Part shown: positions 1 to 62,426 of the stretch, in pieces
How the letters are laid out: every line of letters begins with the position of its first letter
Position numbering within the stretch: the stretch's first letter is position 1
Source: a virus
IMG/VR virus record: IMGVR_UViG_3300027763_000043
Location: 28,974 to 92,973 of that record
Direction: 5' to 3' (one strand)
Length of the DNA: 64,000 bases
The notes under the pieces: generated by a model
Told to the model about the DNA's origin: nothing
The model's input: the letters and a program-made list of their open reading frames with translations, nothing else
Databases searched by the model: none
Translations under genes and position numbers: made by a program

Positions 1-1708
1 CAATTATAATTTGTTGACCTTTCCTATCTTGCGCCACTGAAGGAACATTTTGTCCTGGTGGAGTTGTTGGAGAAACTTTTGCTATTTGTGGTTTTTGGTT
101 ATTAAGAAATGCTATAGGATCTACCGTATTTTCAAATCCACCATCAACTTTTTTTCTAATTTCATAATGAATAACTCCCGTACCACTTTCCCCCACTGCA
201 ACTAAATCTCCGGGTTTAATTGTTTGACCCGGTTTAACCACTATTTTTGCAGCTTCAGCAATTCTTTCATATACACCAAGTTGCTGATTGTATATGTCTG
301 TCGCCCATCCATCGTCACCATATCTAAATTGTCCACCATATACAACTCCCCCAATTCTACTGTAAAACTTGGCATTTGGTCCACTAATATCAAAATCAAC
401 ACCAGCATGTTTTCTACCCGGTCTTGAAGCACCATAATGCTGTTTTCCAGGTAAAGTGTTTGTTGGGGGTAATGGTGGTAAAGAACTTTGAGATATTCCA
501 GATACTCCAGTTGGTTTTGTGGGAGAAGTTAAAGAAGATTGATAAACTGATTTTAAGTCTTGAGATCTTTTTGTTGGTTGTCCATAAGTATTTCCAGGAA
601 AAGATGCCCATTCTGGAGAAAGTTTTTTAATAACTGTTTCACTAAGACCTTCCCTTTTCAATACCTCAGAAGTTACACCTCTTGCAGCAGCGAGACGAAG
701 TGCCATCTCATCTTGAAAACTTTGATCAAATTTTCGATTCATATTCATTCCCAAAGATCGTGCCTTCGCTGTAATATCAATAATTTGATATGCACCAACA
801 GCAGCAGAACTACCACCACCAAACTTTGATTGCGGATCGTTTAAGAATTTAGTAACTAATTTTTCAACTTCATTGGCACTTAGTTTCGTCAAATCTCCAT
901 ATTTTGATTTTCCATATTTGTCTCCAAAAAACATACTATATCCAGTAGGTCCTGCAGTTCCTTCAGCAAATCTAATAGTTTTTAATAATGCTTGTTGTTC
1001 TTTAGTTCCATATCCAGACACATCACCACCACTAGTTGGTCCAGGTTGAGTATAATCAGTATTCAGTTCTGGAACTGATTCTTCTCCAGGACCTTCTCCA
1101 AGAGGTTTACTAAGCATATCGAATCCTTGCAGGAATTGATCACGCATTGTTTCAAGATTAACATTCAAATCGTCCATAGCACTTTGGACTCTTTTTGATT
1201 GATCAGTAAAATCAAATTGAGTAACATTCTGATATACACCAGAAAGAAGATTTCCAAAATTTTGAAATGTATATTTAATATTTGTCATAAAATCTGACAG
1301 TAATCCATATAAAGATTTAATTCTAGTAATCAAATCTTCAATTGCCGTCATAATTGTTGGCAAATTATAAAGTAACCAACCAATCAAAAGACTGGAGGAA
1401 AAATCCAATATTCTCTCAAGAAATCCCTTTGTACTATCACCAATAACTGATGCAGTTCTTCTCATTGCACCACCAATTCCAGACGCTTCGATTATACTTT
1501 CTTGATCTTTTCTTCGAATTGCTTCCTCTCTCATATTTGAAAGAACTTTATCTCTGGCAAAAGATTCTCTTTTTATTCGAGTTCTATTAAGAGTTACAGT
1601 TTTTATAGTATCTGAAGACTTTTTTAAATTTCCCAATCCAGCATTAAGGGAATTCATCCCCTTTGAAACATTAGTAATATTAATTCCCGGTGCTAATGTT
1701 GTTGCCAT
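1..1708 (-). CDS. Tail/baseplate-hub protein with lambda-type lysozyme domain and M23-like peptidase domain (3' end outside window)
   Basis: Not in the ORF track because it runs off the edge. Manual translation from ATG 1708 (MATTLAPG...) stays open in all segments read. Lysozyme motifs ALLKTIRFAEGT, SAAVGAYQII, FQDEMAL, LSPEWASFP; then RKHAGVDF, VKPGQTIKPGDLV, IHYEIR, VDPIAFL (M23). Confidence 0.8.
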   Translation of the reverse strand, partial: MATTLAPGINITNVSKGMNSLNAGLGNLKKSSDTIKTVTLNRTRIKRESFARDKVLSNMREEAIRRKDQESIIEASGIGGAMRRTASVIGDSTKGFLERILDFSSSLLIGWLLYNLPTIMTAIEDLITRIKSLYGLLSDFMTNIKYTFQNFGNLLSGVYQNVTQFDFTDQSKRVQSAMDDLNVNLETMRDQFLQGFDMLSKPLGEGPGEESVPELNTDYTQPGPTSGGDVSGYGTKEQQALLKTIRFAEGTAGPTGYSMFFGDKYGKSKYGDLTKLSANEVEKLVTKFLNDPQSKFGGGSSAAVGAYQIIDITAKARSLGMNMNRKFDQSFQDEMALRLAAARGVTSEVLKREGLSETVIKKLSPEWASFPGNTYGQPTKRSQDLKSVYQSSLTSPTKPTGVSGISQSSLPPLPPTNTLPGKQHYGASRPGRKHAGVDFDISGPNAKFYSRIGGVVYGGQFRYGDDGWATDIYNQQLGVYERIAEAAKIVVKPGQTIKPGDLVAVGESGTGVIHYEIRKKVDGGFENTVDPIAFLNNQKPQIAKVSPTTPPGQNVPSVAQDRKGQQIII

Positions 1709-50992: not shown

Positions 50993-53900
50993 TCAAATCA
51001 TTGTCTCCCTACTAAATCTATAAGTTACTAGTCCACTTACACCACTTTCTGGAGTAAACAATAATTTACACATACCAGAAGAAACTGTTGCTCCGACTGA
51101 AACTATCAAACTTGGTTCAAACATAATTCCATATTCTTGAGAATATGCAGTTGTACCATTTTGCATCAAAAGAACCTTCTGTGCCTGCATGGAACTTGCA
51201 GATTGAACATAAATGGTATATTCTGCAGTTCTAAAATTGATAGAGGAAATTGAAAAACTGTCAATATCAGTACTTACACCAACAGAAGCTGAAAATGTTC
51301 CAACTCCTGTTTTTACACCATATATCTCAACTTGAATTGGTGTTGTTGGATTTGTGGACCCTATTCCCAAATTACCACTTACAAAAGCGCCACCAGTGAC
51401 TTGGAGTGGTTGTGATAGTGTTCCTGTTGAGGATCCAGTACTAATTAATACTGGACCGTTAGTAAATGTGGAAAGTCCAGTAACTTGGAGATCGGTAAAT
51501 GTATTAGGTGCATTAGCGATTGCCGTTTCAATTGTTTCCGTGGTTATAGCATCAAGAGAAGCAATGTTTTGCAGTTGTCTTGAAGAACTAATAACTTGAC
51601 TTGTACCAATATAATATGCGTTAGAAGTTGTAATTCCAGAAACATAAAGATTAGTTGCTGTTGCAATTCCTAAAGTAGCAATTCCAGTAATATTTAAATT
51701 TGTAAATGTTGCTGCTATACCAGTAATATTGGTAATGATACCTGATATTACATTAAGATTGGTTATAGTCGCTGCAACACCAGTAATATTGGTTACAATA
51801 CCAGATGTTACTGTAAGGTTGGTAATCGTACCGGCAATACCAGTAAAGTTGGTAATGATACCTGAAGTAACATTAAGGTTAGTAATAGTAGCAGCAATAC
51901 CAGTAAGGTTGGTTACAATCCCAGATGTTACTGTAAGGTTGGTAATCGTACCAGCAATACCAGTTAAGTTGGTTACGATACCTGAGGTTACTGTAAGGTT
52001 GGTAATCGTACCCGCTACACCAGTCAGGTTGGTTACGATACCTGATGTTACATTGAGATTCGTAATAGTACCAGCGATACCAGTAATATTGGTAATGATA
52101 CCAGATGTTACTGTAAGATTAGTAATAGTACCAGCGATACCAGTTAAGTTAGTTACAATACCCGATGTAACGGTAAGGTTCGTAATCGTACCAGCGATAC
52201 CAGTCAGGTTGGTTACGATACCTGATGTAACATTAAGATTCGTAATAGTACCAGCAATACCAGTCAGGTTGGTTACGATACCTGATGTAACATTAAGGTT
52301 GGTAATAGTACCAGCAATACCAGTAAAGTTGGTAATGATACCTGATGTAACATTAAGGTTGGTAATCGTACCAGCAATACCAGTAAAGTTGGTTATAATA
52401 CCAGATGTTACTGTGAGGTTGGTGATAGTACCAGCAATACCAGTAAAGTTGGTTACGATGCCTGAGGTTACTGTGAGGTTGGTTATAGTACCCGCCACAC
52501 CGGTAATATTGGTAATAATACCCGATGTAACGGTAAGGTTAGTAATCGTACCGGCAATACCAGTCAGGTTGGTTACAATACCCGATGTAACATTAAGACT
52601 GGTTATAGTGGCAGCAATACCAGTTAGGTTGGTTACAATACCCGATGTAACATTAAGACTGGTTATAGTGGCAGCAATACCAGTAAGGTTAGTTACAATA
52701 CCTGATGTTACTTTAAGATTGGTGATTGTGGCAGCTACACCAGTAATATTAGTAATGATACCTACTGTTGCATTAAAATCAGTAATAGTACCAGCAACAC
52801 CGGTAATGTAAGTGATAATTCCTACAGTACTGCTGATATCAGTAAAACTACCAGTTATAGCAGTAATTTGAGTATCAGTAACCTGAACCCCACCAACTGC
52901 TAAACGAACACCATTTGGTACAAGTGTAGATCCAATTCCAATTGCCTGATTAGATAACCAAGAATCGGTTGTACCAACACCATAAGTTCCCCCCTTAACC
53001 CACATAAATTGCTTATATGTATTTGGAAGACTACTAAGTCCAGTTCTTCCTAATGGAACTAACCAAGAACCTTCAGTACTTGCAATTGCAATGCCACCAT
53101 GATTTGCAGTATTATCCGTAGAAATATCATTTCCAAATGCATCAGTAGTAATACCAATTATAATATCCTTATCTTTAACTTGTAATGAAGCAACAGCAAA
53201 AATTGCATTAGTACCACCAACACTAACACTTCCAGTAATATTTAAATCACCAAAAACTGTAAAACTGTTTGAAGTCTGTAATCTATCCGCAGATACAGTA
53301 CCAGCATTTAAATTAGACGCATTTTGATAAAAAGTCCCAGGTTGATCATTCAAATACTGAACATTTAAATTTGAAACTAATGTAGATGAAGCAACAGAAA
53401 TTGGAGCAGTTCCATATACTATAGTAGAATCAAATCTAGATGCAGTTATAATACCAGAAGAATTAATATTAGTATTTGAAATATTGGCAATCGTACCAAT
53501 ACCAGTATAATTTAAATTAGTACCACTAAGATTGGTGATTGTGGCCGCTACACCAGTCAGGTTGGTTACAATACCTGAGGTTACATTAAGACTGGTAATT
53601 GTGACTGCTACACCAGTCAAGTTAGTTACAATACCCGATGTAACATTAAGATTTGTAATAGTACCTGCTACACCAGTAATATTAGTAATGATACCTGAGG
53701 TAACATTCAGATTCGTAATCGTACCTGCGATACCAGTTAAGTTGGTTACGATACCTGATATTACTGTAAGGTTCGTAATCGTACCCGCTATGCCAGTCAG
53801 GTTGGTTACAATACCTGATGTAGCATTCAGATTTGTTATAGTAACCGCTATGCCAGTTAGATTAGTTACGATACCTGAAGTAACATTAAGGTTGGTTATA

Positions 53901-55327
53901 GTACCAGCAATACCAGTTAAATTAGTTACAATACCAGAGGTAACATTGAGATTCGTAATCGTACCAGCAATACCAGTAATATTGGTAATGATACCAGAGG
54001 TAACGTTAAGACTGGTTATAGTACCCGCTACACCAGTAATATTGGTAATAATACCTGAGGTAACATTAAGATTAGTGATTGTTGCTGCTACACCAGTAAT
54101 ATTAGTAACTATTCCAGAAGTTGCATTGAAATTGGTTATAGTACCAATACCAGTATAATTTAAATTAGTACCACTAAGATTCGTAATAGTACCAGATACA
54201 CCAGTAATATTGGTAATAATACCAGATGTAACATTGAGATTAGTAATTGTTGCTGCTACACCAGTCAGGTTGGTAATAATCCCCGATGTTACTGTAAGGT
54301 TAGTAATCGTACCAGCGATACCAGTCAGGTTAGTTACAATACCCGATGTGACATTAAGGTTGGTGATTGTTGCTGCTACACCAGTCAGGTTAGTTACAAT
54401 ACCTGAAGTAACATTAAGGTTGGTGATTGTTGCTGCTACACCAGTCAGGTTGGTAATAATCCCCGATGTTACTGTAAGGTTCGTAATCGTACCCGCTACA
54501 CCAGTCAGGTTGGTTACAATACCTGAAGTAACATTAAGGTTGGTGATTGTTGCTGCTACACCAGTAATATTGGTAATAATACCTGATGTTACTGTAAGGT
54601 TAGTAATCGTACCAGCAATACCAGTCAGGTTAGTTACAATACCCGATGTAACATTAAGGTTCGTAATCGTACCCGCTACACCAGTCAGGTTGGTTACAAT
54701 ACCTGAAGTAACATTAAGGTTGGTGATTGTTGCTGCTACACCAGTAATATTGGTAATAATACCTGATGTAGCATTAAGGTTCGTAATCGTACCCGCTACA
54801 CCAGTAATATTGGTTACAATACCTGAAGTAACATTAAGGTTCGTAATCGTACCAGCGATACCAGTCAGGTTGGTTACGATACCAGAGGTAACATTAAGGT
54901 TGGTTATAGTAGCTGCAATACCAGTTAAATTGGTTACAATACCAGAGGTAACATTAAGGTTGGTTATAGTACCAGCAACACCGGTAATATTGGTAATAAT
55001 GCCTGATGTTACTTTAAGATTTACAATACTCCCAATACCAGTTATATTCCCATTTCTAGCAGTAAACTCATCAACTGTTAGATCATTGGAAATATATAAA
55101 TCTCTACCAACGTATAAATCTCCACCAGTAGTCGTAATACCTCCAGAAGATGCAAGTGTAGTAACTCCGGTTATTTCAGTATCACCAATGACATATAATT
55201 TTCTCCCCCCAGCGTTTGTCGTTCCAATGCCAACTTTACCAGTTACTTCAATAACTGTCTTATTTTCGGTATAAGAACTAATACCTACTTTAAGATTTTG
55301 TTGTCTACCGCTGAGATATTGCGACAT
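50993..55327 (-). CDS. Fibre-like structural protein with extensive 20-aa tandem repeats
   Basis: TNLTG(I/V)AGTITNL(N/T)VTSGI(V/I) repeated roughly 40 times in two blocks. Confidence 0.8.
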   Translation of the reverse strand: MSQYLSGRQQNLKVGISSYTENKTVIEVTGKVGIGTTNAGGRKLYVIGDTEITGVTTLASSGGITTTGGDLYVGRDLYISNDLTVDEFTARNGNITGIGSIVNLKVTSGIITNITGVAGTITNLNVTSGIVTNLTGIAATITNLNVTSGIVTNLTGIAGTITNLNVTSGIVTNITGVAGTITNLNATSGIITNITGVAATITNLNVTSGIVTNLTGVAGTITNLNVTSGIVTNLTGIAGTITNLTVTSGIITNITGVAATITNLNVTSGIVTNLTGVAGTITNLTVTSGIITNLTGVAATITNLNVTSGIVTNLTGVAATITNLNVTSGIVTNLTGIAGTITNLTVTSGIITNLTGVAATITNLNVTSGIITNITGVSGTITNLSGTNLNYTGIGTITNFNATSGIVTNITGVAATITNLNVTSGIITNITGVAGTITSLNVTSGIITNITGIAGTITNLNVTSGIVTNLTGIAGTITNLNVTSGIVTNLTGIAVTITNLNATSGIVTNLTGIAGTITNLTVISGIVTNLTGIAGTITNLNVTSGIITNITGVAGTITNLNVTSGIVTNLTGVAVTITSLNVTSGIVTNLTGVAATITNLSGTNLNYTGIGTIANISNTNINSSGIITASRFDSTIVYGTAPISVASSTLVSNLNVQYLNDQPGTFYQNASNLNAGTVSADRLQTSNSFTVFGDLNITGSVSVGGTNAIFAVASLQVKDKDIIIGITTDAFGNDISTDNTANHGGIAIASTEGSWLVPLGRTGLSSLPNTYKQFMWVKGGTYGVGTTDSWLSNQAIGIGSTLVPNGVRLAVGGVQVTDTQITAITGSFTDISSTVGIITYITGVAGTITDFNATVGIITNITGVAATITNLKVTSGIVTNLTGIAATITSLNVTSGIVTNLTGIAATITSLNVTSGIVTNLTGIAGTITNLTVTSGIITNITGVAGTITNLTVTSGIVTNFTGIAGTITNLTVTSGIITNFTGIAGTITNLNVTSGIITNFTGIAGTITNLNVTSGIVTNLTGIAGTITNLNVTSGIVTNLTGIAGTITNLTVTSGIVTNLTGIAGTITNLTVTSGIITNITGIAGTITNLNVTSGIVTNLTGVAGTITNLTVTSGIVTNLTGIAGTITNLTVTSGIVTNLTGIAATITNLNVTSGIITNFTGIAGTITNLTVTSGIVTNITGVAATITNLNVISGIITNITGIAATFTNLNITGIATLGIATATNLYVSGITTSNAYYIGTSQVISSSRQLQNIASLDAITTETIETAIANAPNTFTDLQVTGLSTFTNGPVLISTGSSTGTLSQPLQVTGGAFVSGNLGIGSTNPTTPIQVEIYGVKTGVGTFSASVGVSTDIDSFSISSINFRTAEYTIYVQSASSMQAQKVLLMQNGTTAYSQEYGIMFEPSLIVSVGATVSSGMCKLLFTPESGVSGLVTYRFSRETMI
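51700..55020 (-). repeat. Two blocks of degenerate 60-bp coding tandem repeats (about 51700-52830 and 53530-55020)
   Basis: 60-nt periodicity visible; variation is mostly synonymous. Confidence 0.9.
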
Positions 55328-55684: not shown

Positions 55685-58600
55685 CTAACCTCCGAGTGCA
55701 AGAATAAATGGTGTCATAGTAGAGAACAAACTCTTCGAATAAAATCTACCAGAAATAGTTCCAGTTTGTTGATTAATTGCAACACCTTCACCAATTCTAA
55801 AATTACCAGATTGATCAGTAGATGTAAAAACTACCAATCCACCATTTCTAGAATCAGTCTCATTATCTTGAATTGGAACTCCTCCCCTCAATGGAACAGC
55901 GCTTGCAATATCATTACCAGATCCAATATATTCAAAAGAATGCCCAGAAGCTAATACTCTACTTTGCTTGTAGAAAAGAACCTCAGTACCAACTCCTACA
56001 GAATAAGGAAGATTTTCATTTACGGTAATCGTAGTAATTCCAGAAGAAACTGGAGTAGATCTCAAAATGGAATAGTAAGTAGGCAATAATTCAATTGTTG
56101 CCGTTGCTGTATTTATTCCAATATTCGGGGAACTAATTGTTATTGTTGGAGATTTAGTATATCCTCTTCCATTTGATACAATTTCAAATCCAGTAACCGA
56201 TCCACCACTAATTACTGCAACTGCTGTTGCCACTACTCCCCAAGAAGTATCTGGTTCCGAAATTGTTACTGTTGGGGTAGTAATATATCCAGTGCCACCA
56301 AATCCCACAGTTACTTTCCCAACAGTGGAATATAAATCCCCAAAATAAACTACTTGCCCATCAAATGGTCGGACTACATTTATTTTAGCAGTTCCAGTAT
56401 TAGGAACATAAGTATGTGGTTGAGTTGCAATACCAACATTCATCGTGAATACAGTACTTGCCATTGAAACTGATGGAAGTCCAGTCAAACTTCCCTGACC
56501 AACAAATGTAGTCAGAATTCCAACAAGATTATCAATATTTGATTTAACATCAGAACAAGACAATGGATCCGTATTAGAACCAGTTAGAGGATCTATAGCA
56601 ACAGTCAAGTCCTTCACATTTAACATATTGTTAATTGCAAGTTTAGAATAATCACGAACTGCATTAAATGCAGTAATTGATTCCACAGTTTCACCAACTA
56701 ATCCATTAGAAATTGGAGTTCCCGAACTTGTAAAATATGACTTTGTTGCTGCAATAATACTTTTATTTGTATAGTTTTTAACATCAGAAGCAACGGCATC
56801 AACAATATAACCAAGATCTCTTTTACACTTAGATTCACCTGCCAAAAATGTTCCACGATTTATAGTAATATTATTGAGAATGTTTAGATTACCAGCACCA
56901 ATTGCTTGAGTTGAAATACTAACAAGAGTATCAATTGAATCTCTTACATTTGTACAGGAATATGGATTTGTATTTGAGGTAGTTCCAATTCCTGGATTTG
57001 GATCTGCAGTGATTGTAAGATCCCTCACATTTAATTGGTTTGTAATCGCCTTCTTAGCATAATCACGAGCACTATTAAATGCATAGATCGATTGAGATTC
57101 TTCACCCAGAAGTGCGGTCGTAGCAGACCCAACACTAGTAAAGTATTGTTTAGTAAATCCAATTGTATAAGAATTTCCACCAGTAAACAAATCGGTAGAG
57201 ATAGCATCCACAAAGTAACCAATATCTCTAGCACACTTATTTGTTGTAGAAATACCAAGATTTGTTGTGGGTAATGAAGTTGTATTTCCTATTCCAATTA
57301 CAGTAGTGATGATACTAACCAGAGTATTAATACTATTCTGAACATCAGCACATGCATTCTCATTTCCAGATTGATCAACTGTAATTGTATTTCCAGTACC
57401 AACATAAGTTGACAATCCAGCACTAACTAAAAGATTCTTAGAATTCAATTGATTTGATACTGCTTTCTTAGCATAATCTCTTACAGCATTGAAGGCAGTG
57501 ATTGATTCATTTGTTTCACCAACTAATCCATTAGAAATTGGATTACCAGAATTATCAAAATACTTTAATACAAATCCTTTTGCATAAGCATTACCACCAG
57601 TAAATACATCAGTTGCAAGGGCATCAATCAAGTATCCAATATCTCTAGCACATTTTGTTCCACCAGTGGTAAAACTACCGAGATTTGTTGTTGGTAATGA
57701 AGATGTATTTCCTGCACCAATTGTAGTAGTAACAATGCTTGTTAAAGTATCAATATTATCCTGCACATCAGAACAAGATAATGGACTTGTATTTGCAACT
57801 GGGAATGGACTTCCGGATCCTATTCTAGCAGGCCCAGTAGTAAGAGTTAAATCAGAATACCCAGCGCCAACAAGATTATTTGTTATTGCATTCTTCATTA
57901 AATTTCTTGCTTGTTCGAAGGCAAAAATTGATTCGACAGTTTCACCAACTAATCCATTTGAAATTGGATTTCCTGCACCATTAAAATATTGTAAAGTGAA
58001 TTGTTTTACATAATTATTTCCACCAGTAAAGACATCGGCAGACACTGCATCAAGAAAAAATCCAATATCTCTTTTACACTTTACTTGAGTTGCAGAAATA
58101 CTTGGATATGAATTATAAGTATTGGTCCAAGCAGTTCCAACAATCACATCTCGGTTTCTTTGAATTAAACGATACGCATCATAATATCTCGATCTACTAT
58201 TTGTTTGAGAATCTCCAGGAAAATAAAAATCAGAATGAGCAATCGCAACTACAGCAAGTGATTTATCAATAATTTCTTGTTTATTGATTTGAATTAAACG
58301 AGAAGCATCATAATAACGATTTTGATTATAAGGAACAGGGTCCGTGGGAAATCTAAAGGATGATGGAAAACCAACAGCAATAGAAGCAAGTGATTTATCT
58401 ACAATTTCTTGCTTATTTTGTTGAATTAAACGATAAGAGTCCTTATATCGATAAGAAACATCATTTACAGAATCTCCAGGAAAAACAAAATCTGGATGAT
58501 TGATTGCAATTGCTGCAAGAGATTTATCAACGATTTCAGTTCTATTTGATGTGATTAAATTGCCTGCATCAATATATCTTCCAGGAGCAACCGATTTAAT

Positions 58601-59677
58601 GTCAAAAACATATCCCTTTTGGCCACTTGGATAATATCTGATTCCTGGTTCATAGGGGCAAGTAAATCCAAGTCCAGCAATAGTTACTCCCATTCCAACA
58701 GAAAAGTTGTGAGGAACTGAAGTATATGCCTTCAGAATTCCAGTAACATTATTATAAGAAGCATTTGTAATATTTAAAGTTGGTGTTGATATATCTAATA
58801 CGAATGTGTCCGCATTTGCATCAGCAGTAGTTGTAATAATTCCAATATATTTTAATGGACTTGTGCCATCAGCAACGAGACCATAAGTACCAAATGATGA
58901 GTTAGAGTTTGTAAGATCACATGCACCACCAGTTCCACAGTAAACTGCAATGTCATCACAAATTGTAAAGAGAGACACCAACTGGGCATAACCCTCATTG
59001 GTCATTGATGCACCAATACCACCCTGATTATATTGAGTATAAGAATCAAGAACCATTGACTTTAATGGACCCAATGCATGATCACCATTAACTTTTAATC
59101 CTATGCTTCCAGGAATAAAATTAGTACAGTTCTGAATATATGGAGATTGATCAATATATCTCTGATTATTTGGATTAAATGCTACAGCTGCACCACCATT
59201 AGATACCGATCCACTAGGAACAGTAAAGGACATTTCGGCAATATAGCATCCAGTACCAACATAAAATAAGTCCGAATTAATATTCTGGGGTTGAACTTCT
59301 ACTTCTCTTAAACTATCCCCAACAATACTAACTTGATCTGGTAATTCAATTGGATTATTTTCTATATAACGTCCAGCACTAACTCTAATAACAGTTCCTG
59401 CGGAGGAAATTGAGACTGCTCCTTTAATGGTTGCTTTTGCGTCTCCGAGTTTGAGTCCTGTGTTTGCGTCGTTTCCGTCTCTTGTGACATAGATAACATT
59501 AGTAACTGTTGTGCCCGCACCAATACGAATAATATCTGTACCGATACCAGGACGCTCTCTCTTAGCAACCAGTTCACCGTCGTAAGTATTATATGCTAAT
59601 TCAGCACTTAAGAGTTGATCTGGTGTAGGTCTTTTTCCAGGTACGACAGATCTTTTAATCCTGATGGGAGTTGACAT
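55685..59677 (-). CDS. Virion structural/tail-spike-like protein with beta-helix and four inserted phycobiliprotein-like domains
   Basis: N-terminal IRIKRS...ELAYN..DG anchor; YV..DGND...G beta-helix start; four KC(A/K)RD(I/L)G(Y/F) repeats. Confidence 0.75.
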   Translation of the reverse strand: MSTPIRIKRSVVPGKRPTPDQLLSAELAYNTYDGELVAKRERPGIGTDIIRIGAGTTVTNVIYVTRDGNDANTGLKLGDAKATIKGAVSISSAGTVIRVSAGRYIENNPIELPDQVSIVGDSLREVEVQPQNINSDLFYVGTGCYIAEMSFTVPSGSVSNGGAAVAFNPNNQRYIDQSPYIQNCTNFIPGSIGLKVNGDHALGPLKSMVLDSYTQYNQGGIGASMTNEGYAQLVSLFTICDDIAVYCGTGGACDLTNSNSSFGTYGLVADGTSPLKYIGIITTTADANADTFVLDISTPTLNITNASYNNVTGILKAYTSVPHNFSVGMGVTIAGLGFTCPYEPGIRYYPSGQKGYVFDIKSVAPGRYIDAGNLITSNRTEIVDKSLAAIAINHPDFVFPGDSVNDVSYRYKDSYRLIQQNKQEIVDKSLASIAVGFPSSFRFPTDPVPYNQNRYYDASRLIQINKQEIIDKSLAVVAIAHSDFYFPGDSQTNSRSRYYDAYRLIQRNRDVIVGTAWTNTYNSYPSISATQVKCKRDIGFFLDAVSADVFTGGNNYVKQFTLQYFNGAGNPISNGLVGETVESIFAFEQARNLMKNAITNNLVGAGYSDLTLTTGPARIGSGSPFPVANTSPLSCSDVQDNIDTLTSIVTTTIGAGNTSSLPTTNLGSFTTGGTKCARDIGYLIDALATDVFTGGNAYAKGFVLKYFDNSGNPISNGLVGETNESITAFNAVRDYAKKAVSNQLNSKNLLVSAGLSTYVGTGNTITVDQSGNENACADVQNSINTLVSIITTVIGIGNTTSLPTTNLGISTTNKCARDIGYFVDAISTDLFTGGNSYTIGFTKQYFTSVGSATTALLGEESQSIYAFNSARDYAKKAITNQLNVRDLTITADPNPGIGTTSNTNPYSCTNVRDSIDTLVSISTQAIGAGNLNILNNITINRGTFLAGESKCKRDLGYIVDAVASDVKNYTNKSIIAATKSYFTSSGTPISNGLVGETVESITAFNAVRDYSKLAINNMLNVKDLTVAIDPLTGSNTDPLSCSDVKSNIDNLVGILTTFVGQGSLTGLPSVSMASTVFTMNVGIATQPHTYVPNTGTAKINVVRPFDGQVVYFGDLYSTVGKVTVGFGGTGYITTPTVTISEPDTSWGVVATAVAVISGGSVTGFEIVSNGRGYTKSPTITISSPNIGINTATATIELLPTYYSILRSTPVSSGITTITVNENLPYSVGVGTEVLFYKQSRVLASGHSFEYIGSGNDIASAVPLRGGVPIQDNETDSRNGGLVVFTSTDQSGNFRIGEGVAINQQTGTISGRFYSKSLFSTMTPFILALGG

Positions 59678-59733: not shown

Positions 59734-60105
59734 TCAAGTCGCATTATTGCGTCTTGGACGATAAGCATAAAGATTAGTAGGTGCCTCAGGTTTCATCCAT
59801 TCTTCTATCTTATTAAATTTATCTTCATTATAAAAATCTTGCTGAACATACCATAACTTCCAATGATCATGCCCCTTCGACTGATTGCAAGAATGGCAAC
59901 AAGCAACTACGTTTGTCTTAATATCAAGTCCACCTTTACACTGTGGAGTAATGTGATCTAGTGTGATATTTTCTTCAGAATCACAATAGGCGCACTTATT
60001 TTCCCATTGATCCTTTATATTTTTTCTCCACAATCGTTTTGCATCTGCTTTACTCGTTGTTTCCAAATTAAACAAGTAGTCCTTAAACGAATGTAGAGGA
60101 ACCAT
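59734..60105 (-). CDS. HNH endonuclease
   Basis: CAYC...LDHI.P..KGG...NVVACC..CN..KG. Confidence 0.88.
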   Translation of the reverse strand: MVPLHSFKDYLFNLETTSKADAKRLWRKNIKDQWENKCAYCDSEENITLDHITPQCKGGLDIKTNVVACCHSCNQSKGHDHWKLWYVQQDFYNEDKFNKIEEWMKPEAPTNLYAYRPRRNNAT

Positions 60106-61852: not shown

Positions 61853-61914
61853 AATAGGGACATTAGAAAGAGGAACACTCCGAATAACTGGAAGAGCAGG
61901 AGGATGAGGAGCAT
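61849..61914 (-). CDS. 21-aa hydrophobic peptide
   Basis: MLLILLLFQLFGVFLFLMSLL*, overlapping the endonuclease tail. Confidence 0.45.
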   Translation of the reverse strand: MLLILLLFQLFGVFLFLMSLL

Positions 61915-62426
61915 TTTTGTAAGTATTTAACTGCATTGCTTAATGTACTTATATTATCACCAACCAATCCTAACATTCTATTACAATTACTACAAAGTAA
62001 TCCACGAACTTGTCCAGTCTTATGGTCGTGGTCTACATAAAGACTATTACTATCCTTTCTACCATTAGTATTTGGATTAAAACAAATAGCACATACTTCG
62101 TTTTGTTCTTGGAGGATATTTTCATACTGCTCCAATCCAAAATCTTTACCATAGGTATACTTCAACATATAGTCCTTCTTCTCACTATAAGAAGGTCTCT
62201 TATCTTTATAAGTTTCACTATAACAACTCTTACATCTCTTATGTCCTTTGTAGTAATCGGATATTTGTTTTTCTACACTACACTTATTACAGATAATATG
62301 CGTTTTACTGGACCAGTTTTCGGCATAAGTTTTTTCCTCACACCTCAAACACCTCCTACGACCTTCTCTAAAATCAGAAGTAGGAAGTTCTTTGGTGCAA
62401 GTTCTACAAATCTTAGTGGTTCTCAT
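61863..62426 (-). CDS. Endonuclease VII-family free-standing homing endonuclease (F-CphI-like)
   Basis: CAIC...L.VDHDHKTGQVRGLLC..CN..LG; N-terminal CxxC repeats; immediately downstream of psbA; TATAAATA at 62448-62455. Confidence 0.85.
   Translation of the reverse strand: MRTTKICRTCTKELPTSDFREGRRRCLRCEEKTYAENWSSKTHIICNKCSVEKQISDYYKGHKRCKSCYSETYKDKRPSYSEKKDYMLKYTYGKDFGLEQYENILQEQNEVCAICFNPNTNGRKDSNSLYVDHDHKTGQVRGLLCSNCNRMLGLVGDNISTLSNAVKYLQKCSSSSCSSSYSECSSF

What the first reader, a model, noticed from the sequence alone, without database searches (positions are those of the whole stretch)
56480..58580. Russian-doll (AAAA-BBBB) domain nesting
Seen: four 43-44-aa N-half repeats (starting 58579, 58450, 58318, 58189: RY.D...LI..N...I(V/I)) are followed by four 136-142-aa C-half repeats. 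Only the innermost pair is contiguous (...YNSYPSISATQVKCKRD), and the counts match exactly. Inference: each domain was inserted into the loop just before the Cys helix of the previous one, so A1 pairs with B4, A2 with B3, and so on. This would form an out-and-back helical stalk projecting from the beta-helix, a rare way to lengthen a protein.
Basis: partly seen in the sequence, partly recalled or inferred. Interest (0 to 1): 0.72.

Follow-up and report, generated by a model that had tools for sequence, protein, structure and literature searches.

The report
Nested phycobiliprotein-like domains in cyanophage fibre
A cyanophage tail-fibre-like protein carries four copies of a phycobiliprotein-like globin domain that are most likely threaded one inside the next like Russian dolls, an unusual way to build a rod of adjustable length.

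Summary
The 1330-aa ORF 55685-59677 (-) has four 36-44-aa A repeats starting at nt 58579, 58450, 58318 and 58189. They are followed directly by four 136-142-aa B repeats.

- One A plus one B make one phycobiliprotein (PBP)-like globin domain. A matches PBP helices A-B and the PGGN loop. B matches helices E-H and begins with the K-C-x-R-D "Cys84" motif.
- The AlphaFold2 model (pLDDT 84, pTM 0.81) matches phycoerythrin and ApcE at A4+B1 (Z 14-16). Globin alignments also span A1..B4 and A2..B3.
- All 88 complete orthologs have matched counts (A3B3, A4B4, A5B5, A6B6, A4B4-A3B3). The count changes at least 15 times on a flank tree.
- A 2900-aa relative reads A10 B7 A2 B5, which is 12/12 and a balanced-bracket word.
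- The two kinds of 3/3 variant lack A3+B2 or A1/2+B3, which are mirror pairs.
- Distance correlations link A1 with B3/B4, A3 with B2 and A4 with B1.

Two corrections apply. Copy number changes by separate duplications in each array and by swaps of the inner cassette, not by serial insertion. Distant relatives use the same domain in plain tandem (AB)n arrays.

No contact map could be obtained, and domain swapping within an oligomer is not excluded. I found no prior description.

The parts
55685..59677 (-). Whole gene: 1330-aa tail-fibre-like virion protein (P0001)
   Evidence: ORF list and translation. PHROG 17885 and 4527 'tail fiber protein' at E 1e-180 and 1e-170. tblastn hits to tail-fibre genes of T4-like cyanophages P-SSM2, S-SRM01 and B3.
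58856..59677 (-). aa 1-274: conserved N-terminus and right-handed beta-helix (tailspike-like)
   Evidence: In the full-length model of the 3/3 ortholog P0057 (same numbering up to A1), beta-helix matches include cyanophage Pam1 tailspike 7eea_A at Z 11.6, PL6 lyases and CBA120 TSP2.
58580..58855 (-). aa 275-366: beta-strand region at the base of the stalk
   Evidence: Strands 275-362 in the P0057 model. Small beta-domain matches span 274..1060 (9n71_B Z 9.6, 8vjh_B Z 8.8), which suggests pairing with post-stalk strands.
58451..58579 (-). A1 (aa 367-409), helix-kink-helix plus loop; proposed partner B4
   Evidence: Helices at model residues 27-54. Globin alignments span model 23..726 and 25..720. 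Distance correlation with B3 is 0.73 and with B4 0.72.
58319..58450 (-). A2 (aa 410-453); proposed partner B3
   Evidence: One alignment spans model 70..591. The covariation signal is ambiguous.
58190..58318 (-). A3 (aa 454-496); proposed partner B2
   Evidence: The best distance correlation of A3 with any unit is B2 (0.57). A3 and B2 are the pair missing in most 3/3 orthologs.
58082..58189 (-). A4 (aa 497-532), innermost A, continuous with B1
   Evidence: Pfam PF00502 match at aa 494-566, E 6.4e-9, 36.4 bits against a cut-off of 22.2. The A4+B1 part of the model matches ApcE 4xxi_A at Z 13.9 and rmsd 1.9 A.
57656..58081 (-). B1 (aa 533-674): PBP helices E-H; KCKRD motif and a second Cys (SCSDV)
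57239..57655 (-). B2 (aa 675-813); KCARDIGY is identical to C-phycocyanin alpha around Cys84
   Evidence: phmmer alignment to 4h0m_A and 7d6w_A.
56831..57238 (-). B3 (aa 814-949)
56423..56830 (-). B4 (aa 950-1085), outermost B; proposed partner A1
55688..56422 (-). aa 1086-1330: post-stalk beta domains and conserved C-terminus (SGHSFEYIG...ILALGG)
   Evidence: PHROG 17885 match at aa 1047-1329. Strands in the P0057 model. Beta-helix alignments extend to about residue 1096 of that model, in a low-pLDDT part.

Best explanation
The gene encodes a virion fibre or spike protein of a T4-like marine cyanophage. Between its tailspike-like beta-helix and beta-domain flanks lies a stack of four phycobiliprotein-like globin domains, each split in two. 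The chain runs outward through A1-A4. Each A is a helix-kink-helix homologous to PBP helices A-B plus the PGGN loop. At the tip, A4 continues without a break into B1, and the chain returns through B1-B4, each homologous to PBP helices E-H. Each B captures the A segment at its own level, so the pairs are A4-B1, A3-B2, A2-B3 and A1-B4. Topologically, each domain sits in the B-E loop of the one outside it. The result is a hairpin rod whose two ends leave at the same base. Its length is therefore set in whole steps by n without disturbing the flanking domains. The repeats, the PBP homology, the matched counts and the mirror-pair losses are shown. The packing rests on an AlphaFold2 model and on co-variation. 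The role as an adjustable-reach projection is inferred. Copy number evolves by separate duplications and deletions in the two arrays, with only matched states surviving, and by replacement of the contiguous inner cassette.
For: (1) The repeats are exact.
(2) A+B is one PBP-like domain. Pfam PF00502 matches above its cut-off. A single contiguous A-B unit in a paralog of the same phage aligns to beta-phycocyanin 6jpr_B residues 36-138. The model matches phycoerythrin 5aqd_M at Z 15.6, ApcE 4xxi_A at Z 13.9 (rmsd 1.9 A) and allophycocyanin 8or7_A at Z 13.8. These matches recur in the second model.
(3) The AF2 model of aa 340-1100 has pLDDT 83.8 and pTM 0.81 over 761 residues. Globin chains align over model 23..726 (140 residues) and 25..720 (126 residues), which requires A1 to pack on B4. 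Another alignment spans 70..591, that is A2 to B3.
(4) Counts: A4B4 x77-78, A3B3-A2B2 x17, A3B3 x9-10, A5B5 x7, A6B6 x3, A4B4-A3B3 x2, A4B4-A6B6 x1 and A10 B7 A2 B5 x19, the last being 12/12.
(5) On a tree of the flanks of 88 complete orthologs the count label changes 18 times, at least 15 of them forced by supported branches, and the counts always stay matched.
(6) Against their nearest 4/4 relatives, the 3/3 variants lack A3+B2 (seven proteins) or A1/2+B3 (P0101). Both obey i+j=5. In P0116 and P0117 the outer layers are 88-98% identical, while the inner A and B units are 53-65% identical.
(7) Distance-matrix correlations run against linear linkage. A1 correlates best with B3 and B4 (0.73, 0.72) against 0.43 with the adjacent A2. 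A3 correlates best with B2 (0.57) and A4 with B1 (0.64). APC-corrected mutual information, taken by blocks, is weakly anti-diagonal.
(8) Distant homologs carry the same domain as contiguous A-like helix plus Cys-helix units in tandem, so every B-type body normally has its own A.
Against: No coordinates, PAE or contact map were available, so the pairing in the model is inferred only from aligned ranges of weak globin matches (Z about 6). AF2 saw only a shallow alignment of orthologs (Neff about 57) and knows the PBP fold, so it could impose the pairing. Signals for A2 are ambiguous. The tail helix of each B also resembles PBP helix B in a phmmer alignment, so B units might partly complement each other. 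Some homologs are unbalanced by one B: P0144 is A7 B5 A2 B5, and P0068 is A4 B5 with a Cys-less fifth B. These may be real or may be assembly errors in repeats. Fibre proteins are usually oligomers, and a monomer model cannot tell whether A and B pair within one chain or between chains.
Confidence: 0.78

Rival explanations
1. The pairing rule holds but works between chains. In the assembled (probably trimeric) fibre, each B domain is completed by an A segment from a neighbouring subunit. The stalk is then a domain-swapped bundle and not a single-chain Russian doll.
For: Tailspike-like beta-helix proteins are usually trimers (established knowledge; fold matches). The AF2 jobs were monomers. Matched counts and mirror-pair losses would also be expected for an antiparallel swap.
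Against: A4 is covalently continuous with B1, and together they form a normal PBP-like domain within one chain. The monomer model is already compact, with pTM 0.81. A swap would still need the same out-and-back path.
Confidence: 0.12
2. B domains are self-sufficient, with the tail helix of the preceding B standing in for the missing N-terminal helices. A1-A3 form a separate helical strap or rod running alongside. Counts match only because the two arrays must span the same length.
For: phmmer aligns the B1 tail helix plus the B2 head to phycocyanin alpha residues 42-117. In the giant protein P0161, a 'C-D-A' helix seems to serve both as the tail of one unit and as the A of the next.
Against: The contiguous single units and the tandem (AB)n relatives always place an A-like helix directly before the Cys helix. 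Globin alignments use A1 together with B4. A3 shares its history specifically with B2, and A1 with B3/B4. Even this model remains an out-and-back stalk with mirror register.
Confidence: 0.07
3. A and B are two unrelated tandem arrays that happen to have four copies each, and they do not interact.
For: Each array on its own could arise by ordinary slippage or unequal recombination. Duplications in the two arrays are sometimes of mismatched type, for example an A2-like extra A with a B2-like extra B in P0004.
Against: Counts are equal in all 88 complete orthologs across n=3-6, with at least 15 changes, and 12/12 in A10 B7 A2 B5. A plus B equals one PBP domain by sequence and by fold.
Confidence: 0.02

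Closest known systems
Phycobiliproteins (Pfam PF00502; e.g. phycoerythrin 5aqd_M, ApcE bilin domain 4xxi_A, beta-phycocyanin 6jpr_B)
   Same: The globin-like helical fold is shared (Z 13-16, rmsd 1.9-2.3 A over 115-122 residues). The R.DAVN.I..N...IV helix, the PGGN loop and the K-C-x-R-D motif of the Cys82/84 helix are shared. A second Cys before the last helix sits where beta-subunits carry Cys155.
   Different: It lies inside a phage virion protein. It lacks clear X-Y N-terminal helices. Overall identity is only 13-17%. It is repeated and split, with further copies inserted in the B-E loop. Bilin binding is untested.
Streptococcal antigen I/II adhesins (SpaP, SspB, BspA)
   Same: A region and a P region, each made of repeats, intertwine into a long hairpin stalk that holds a domain at its tip (PMC7732690). 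That the repeats pair antiparallel and count-matched is my own knowledge, not checked in the paper. This is the closest functional analogue of a count-matched hairpin rod.
   Different: There an alpha-helix pairs with a polyproline-II helix and a different V domain sits at the tip. Here each level is a complete globin-type domain split in two, and the tip is simply the innermost copy. There is no sequence or fold relationship.
Flagellin/hook-type nested hairpin proteins and ordinary single domain insertions (own knowledge, not tested here)
   Same: N- and C-terminal segments pair level by level, and discontinuous parent domains host an inserted domain. The full-length model hints that the beta-helix and beta domains of this protein are also built from N and C parts.
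   Different: In those cases the nested domains are unrelated to each other and nesting is shallow. Here one and the same domain is nested in itself 3-10 deep, with a variable copy number.
Tandem (AB)n arrays of the same domain in distant homologs (e.g. P0406, P0339, P0330, P0333)
   Same: They have the same C.RD.G.I.DA...D...GGN helix preceded by an A-like LL..NK.FI..E.IA helix. Some share the same C-terminal FRIG...INQ.TG...ALGG-type end.
   Different: The units are contiguous and simply repeated head to tail, 8-34 times with a period of 108-165 aa. They are beads on a string, not nested.

Membership tests
Phycobiliprotein family (PF00502) | Sequence match to the family profile above the curated threshold | tested here: met
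   P0001 aa 494-566 scores E 6.4e-9 and 36.4 bits against a cut-off of 22.2. The six-frame search of the genome gives 16.9 bits for this gene and 23.6 bits for the paralog.
Phycobiliprotein family (PF00502) | Globin-like fold with helices A, B, E, F, G, H | tested here: met
   The AF2 model matches 5aqd_M at Z 15.6, 4xxi_A at Z 13.9 (rmsd 1.9 A), 8or7_A at Z 13.8 and 8imk_G at Z 13.5. Ordinary globins and sensor globins score Z 6-10.7. This is a predicted structure, not a solved one.
Phycobiliprotein family (PF00502) | Cys82/84-x-Arg-Asp bilin-attachment motif | tested here: met
   KCKRD, KCARD, KCARD and KCKRD occur in B1-B4. The Cys is invariant in three of the four B units and at least 90% conserved in B2, across 78 orthologs. 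KCARDIGY is identical to CpcA.
Phycobiliprotein family (PF00502) | N-terminal X-Y helices used for alpha-beta heterodimer formation | tested here: inconclusive
   Sequence alignments start at PBP residue 36 or thereabouts. In the model the second helix of A3 lies where the 5aqd_M N-terminus aligns (range 129..315).
Phycobiliprotein family (PF00502) | Covalently bound bilin chromophore and a light-harvesting role | not testable with these tools
   No ho1, pebS/pcyA or cpeT is present in the 93-kb record, but the record is only about 40% complete.
Nested (discontinuous) domain insertion | The parent domain is formed from two sequence-distant segments that enclose a contiguous inserted domain | tested here: met
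   In the AF2 model, globin alignments span 23..726 and 70..591. The insertion point after PGGN is mapped by the contiguous paralog unit. This rests on prediction only.
Nested (discontinuous) domain insertion | The numbers of N-parts and C-parts are necessarily equal and form a balanced-bracket order | tested here: met
   All 88 complete orthologs are balanced. 144 of 241 homologs are exact balanced words by a strict HMM count. The rest show an excess of 1-5 B (one row has an excess of one A); in the two examples inspected (P0161, P0068) the excess came from a divergent A or a split or degenerate B.
Antigen I/II-type hairpin stalk | Alpha-helical A repeats paired with polyproline-II P repeats, with the V domain at the tip | tested here: not met
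   The B units are four-helix globin bodies, not PPII helices, and there is no distinct tip domain. It is an analogue only.
Tailspike-type right-handed beta-helix protein | Parallel beta-helix domain | tested here: met
   The P0057 full-length model matches 7eea_A at Z 11.6, 5olq_A at Z 11.3, 7dmk_A at Z 11.2 and 6c72_A at Z 10.7. Parts of the helix have pLDDT below 50.

The most novel reading that the evidence does not exclude
The nested stack is a functional bilin-binding rod on the virion. Each level keeps the Cys-x-Arg-Asp attachment motif and a second beta-155-like Cys. The phage-encoded bilin genes (ho1, pebS/pcyA, cpeT), whose role the literature calls a mystery (PMC3037559), would then serve to chromophorylate phage structural proteins. 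The Russian-doll threading would hold 3-12 chromophore pockets in a rigid linear array.
Probability: 0.15. Interest if true: 0.95.

Novelty: new variant of a known kind. Interest (0 to 1): 0.74.

Why it matters
Domain insertion and hairpin stalks are known. A single domain type inserted into itself 3-10 levels deep appears undescribed, as does natural variation that obeys a balanced-bracket rule. It would give a clean natural example of how a discontinuous domain can serve as a modular unit of length. It would also show how selection keeps two distant repeat arrays in step. The domain is a phycobiliprotein relative that keeps the chromophore-site residues and sits in virion proteins of cyanophages, which puzzlingly encode bilin-synthesis enzymes. 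That makes an old open question directly testable.

Tried and rejected
- TRF finds no DNA tandem repeat, and the direct DNA repeats are only 60-77% identical. The signal is at the protein level.
I used aligned ranges from VIA-align instead.
- I tested whether the tip (A4/B1) is hypervariable. Per-unit identity across 78 orthologs is flat at 60-76% with no gradient, so I dropped this idea.
- APC-corrected mutual information by block gives only a weak anti-diagonal and cannot separate A1-B3 from A1-B4.
- Raw HMM counts in the giant homologs looked unbalanced (A1 B1 A4 B9 and similar). Inspection showed split B hits, divergent A helices and a second insertion site, so those counts are unreliable and I did not use them as a refutation.
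- The 'B-only' arrays of 8-34 units in distant homologs turned out to be contiguous A-like plus B units.
- The short homologs (under 730 aa) that I inspected are mostly fragments that start or end inside a repeat, and they say nothing about split genes.
- Literature searches for phycobiliprotein-like or PF00502 domains in cyanophage structural proteins, and for nested or Russian-doll domains, found nothing relevant.
- ho1, pebS/pcyA and cpeT were not found in the 93-kb record, which is uninformative because the record is about 40% complete.
- No other ORF in the window carries A or B repeats.
Full report
**What is there**

The finding lies in one ORF, window 55685-59677 on the minus strand, of 1330 aa (P0001). 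The window is part of a 93-kb IMG/VR viral record. The gene sits in a run of large minus-strand virion genes. PHROG profiles call it a tail fibre protein (phrog_17885 at E 5e-180, phrog_4527 at E 4e-170). The best tblastn matches are tail-fibre-like genes of T4-like cyanophages, namely Synechococcus phages B3 and S-SRM01 and Prochlorococcus phage P-SSM2.

**The observation**

- RY.D motifs start at aa 367, 410, 454 and 497.
- KC.RD motifs start at aa 533, 675, 814 and 950.
- The A units are 43, 44, 43 and 36 aa. The B units are 142, 139, 136 and 136 aa.
- A4 continues directly into B1.
- HMMs built from the copies score 56-87 bits for each A and 204-222 bits for each B.
- The DNA copies are only 60-77% identical, so the repeats are old.

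**What the unit is**

Pfam places a Phycobilisome-protein (PF00502) match across the A4/B1 junction (aa 494-566, E 6.4e-9, above the cut-off). B2 carries KCARDIGY, identical to the Cys84 helix of C-phycocyanin alpha.

The same phage record, outside the window, encodes a 1204-aa paralog (L003:4251-7862, minus strand). It has the same beta-helix and C-terminal end but only one contiguous A-B unit. That unit aligns to beta-phycocyanin and beta-phycoerythrin residues 36-138. 'RYADAVNLILDNLDFIATEAV...FTIPGGN' aligns with 'KRADAVNRITSNASAIVAAAV...LIAPGGN', and the Cys helix follows.

Each B also has an invariant second Cys (SC.DV) before its last helix.

**Structure prediction**

AlphaFold2 on aa 340-1100, with 78 A4B4 orthologs as the alignment, gave pLDDT 83.8 and pTM 0.81. 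That is high for 761 residues and would be unexpected for beads on a flexible string. Each A is a helix-kink-helix of about 28 residues. Each B has four helices.

An all-against-PDB structural search gave these results:

| Model range | Chain | Z | Other figures |
|---|---|---|---|
| 129..315 | phycoerythrin 5aqd_M | 15.6 | 151 residues aligned |
| 156..316 (A4+B1) | ApcE bilin domain 4xxi_A | 13.9 | rmsd 1.9 A |
| 153..315 | allophycocyanin 8or7_A | 13.8 | |
| 23..726 | protoglobin 7ute_A | 6.2 | 140 residues aligned |
| 25..720 | giant haemoglobin chain 2d2m_D | 5.8 | 126 residues aligned |
| 70..591 (A2 to B3) | 2i2x_B | 6.1 | 92 residues aligned |

For the two alignments that run from about residue 23 to about residue 720, a compact globin can cover 126-140 residues only if the A1 helices (27-54) pack on B4 (607-722).

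A second model, the full-length 3/3 ortholog P0057 (pLDDT 75, pTM 0.65), reproduced the PBP matches at its innermost unit. It also showed tailspike-type beta-helix matches, with cyanophage Pam1 tailspike 7eea_A at Z 11.6.

**Counts in homologs**

I counted A and B with HMMs in 241 homologs. The architectures with matched counts were:

| Architecture | Number of proteins |
|---|---|
| A4B4 | 77-78 |
| A3B3-A2B2 | 17 |
| A3B3 | 9-10 |
| A5B5 | 7 |
| A6B6 | 3 |
| A4B4-A3B3 | 2 |
| A4B4-A6B6 | 1 |
| A10 B7 A2 B5 (about 2900 aa) | 19 |

The last class has unequal blocks but totals 12/12 and forms a balanced-bracket word. This is what nesting with a side branch predicts.

All 88 orthologs with complete flanks are matched. 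The one apparent exception, P0058, is a clipped HMM hit. On a tree built from the flanks alone the copy-number label changes 18 times, at least 15 of them forced by supported branches. Near-identical flanks can carry A3B3 against A4B4 (P0116/P0030) or A6B6 against A4B4 (P0009/P0065). Whole-stalk recombination may inflate the number of independent events. Even so, mismatched states are essentially absent.

**Which A goes with which B**

I compared each variant with its nearest 4/4 relative.
- Seven 3/3 proteins lack A3 and B2.
- P0101 lacks A1/2 and B3.
- Both cases obey i+j=5 (mirror pairing) and contradict parallel pairing.
- In P0116 and P0117 the two outer layers are 88-98% identical to the relative, while the inner A and B units are only 53-65% identical. 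The contiguous inner cassette has therefore been replaced.
- The 5/5 and 6/6 forms arise by tandem duplication inside each array. The types are sometimes mismatched (P0004 has an A2-like extra A with a B2-like extra B).

So the arrays change separately and matched states are retained. They do not grow by repeated insertion.

Pairwise-distance correlations across 78 orthologs run against linear linkage.
- A1 correlates with B3 and B4 (0.73, 0.72), which lie about 2 kb away, far better than with the adjacent A2 (0.43).
- The best partner of A3 among all units is B2 (0.57).
- The best partner of A4 is B1 (0.64).
- A2 is ambiguous.

Block mutual information is weakly anti-diagonal.

**Wider family**

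A search of 1.84 billion representatives found 460 clusters.

Distant giants (27-30% identity; 8-34 units; period 108-165 aa) looked 'B-only' to my A HMM. In most of their units, however, a divergent A-like helix sits directly before the C.RD helix, so these are plain tandem (AB)n arrays.

In giant cyanophage proteins such as P0161, a complete divergent unit plus beta domains sits in the G-H loop of a B. This is a second insertion site.

These cases explain most of the apparent B excess. A few one-off imbalances remain (P0144, and P0068 with a Cys-less fifth B).

**How it most likely works**

The stalk is a single-chain hairpin of split globin domains. Both of its ends emerge at the base, next to the beta-strand flanks. 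Its length therefore changes in whole-domain steps, with n=3-6 here and 10+2 in relatives, without re-engineering the flanking domains.

By analogy, streptococcal AgI/II adhesins use intertwined A and P repeat regions as a stalk (PMC7732690). A purpose as an adjustable reach or spacer for host-surface contact is inference. No tip hypervariability was seen.

The main uncertainties are that the pairing may occur between chains in an oligomer, and that the evidence rests on predicted structure.

**Novelty**

I found no description of PBP-like domains in cyanophage structural proteins or of self-nested repeats. Reviews still call the phage bilin genes a mystery.

I reached the same reading from Pfam before seeing it. 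Bilin binding remains untested.

Noticed in passing
L003:4251-7862 (-) = G000:C1:21250-24861, outside the window: A paralog in the same phage (1204 aa) has a long beta-rich N-terminal region, the same beta-helix and the same C-terminal end. It carries only one contiguous A-B phycobiliprotein-like unit (aa 915-1073), with KCIAD in place of KC.RD. This is the n=1 base case.
   Followed up: partly
window 55688-56422 and 58856-59677 (by homology to the P0057 model): In the full-length model of ortholog P0057, beta-helix matches span residues 55..1096 with only 200-240 residues aligned. A small beta domain spans 274..1060. The beta-helix and the base domains may therefore also be built from N- and C-terminal parts, making the whole protein a hairpin. 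The C-terminal part has pLDDT below 50, so this is tentative.
   Followed up: partly
P0161 aa 1540-2240 (giant homolog, 4775 aa): There is a second nesting site. A complete divergent A-B unit plus PHxF-type beta domains is inserted in the G-H loop of a B unit. Two orphan 'C.DV' tail helices at 2041 and 2077 follow, and these seem to close earlier B bodies.
   Followed up: partly
P0406, P0339, P0327, P0330, P0333 (distant homologs): These proteins carry 8-34 contiguous PBP-like units in simple tandem (period 108-165 aa; motif LL..NK.FIQ.E.IAY....W..F.YNE..C.RD.G.I.DA...D...GGN) and reach 6382 aa. The same domain is used as beads on a string.
   Followed up: partly
window 50993-55327 (-): The neighbouring 1444-aa protein (P0002) consists almost wholly of a 20-aa (2x10) repeat, TITNLNVTSG/IVTNLTGIAG. 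The repeat forms two long blocks separated by a non-repeat segment. Only weak PHROG tail-fibre matches were found.
   Followed up: no
window 59734-60105 (-) and 61863-62426 (-): Two HNH / endonuclease VII-type genes lie just upstream of the fibre gene cluster (PHROG 2214 at E 2e-30; PHROG 2633 at E 6e-31).
   Followed up: no
P0144 (A7 B5 A2 B5) and P0068 (A4 B5): These homologs are rare cases with one B too many. The fifth B of P0068 has lost the Cys (KFHED). They may be tolerated unpaired or degenerate B domains, or assembly errors.
   Followed up: partly
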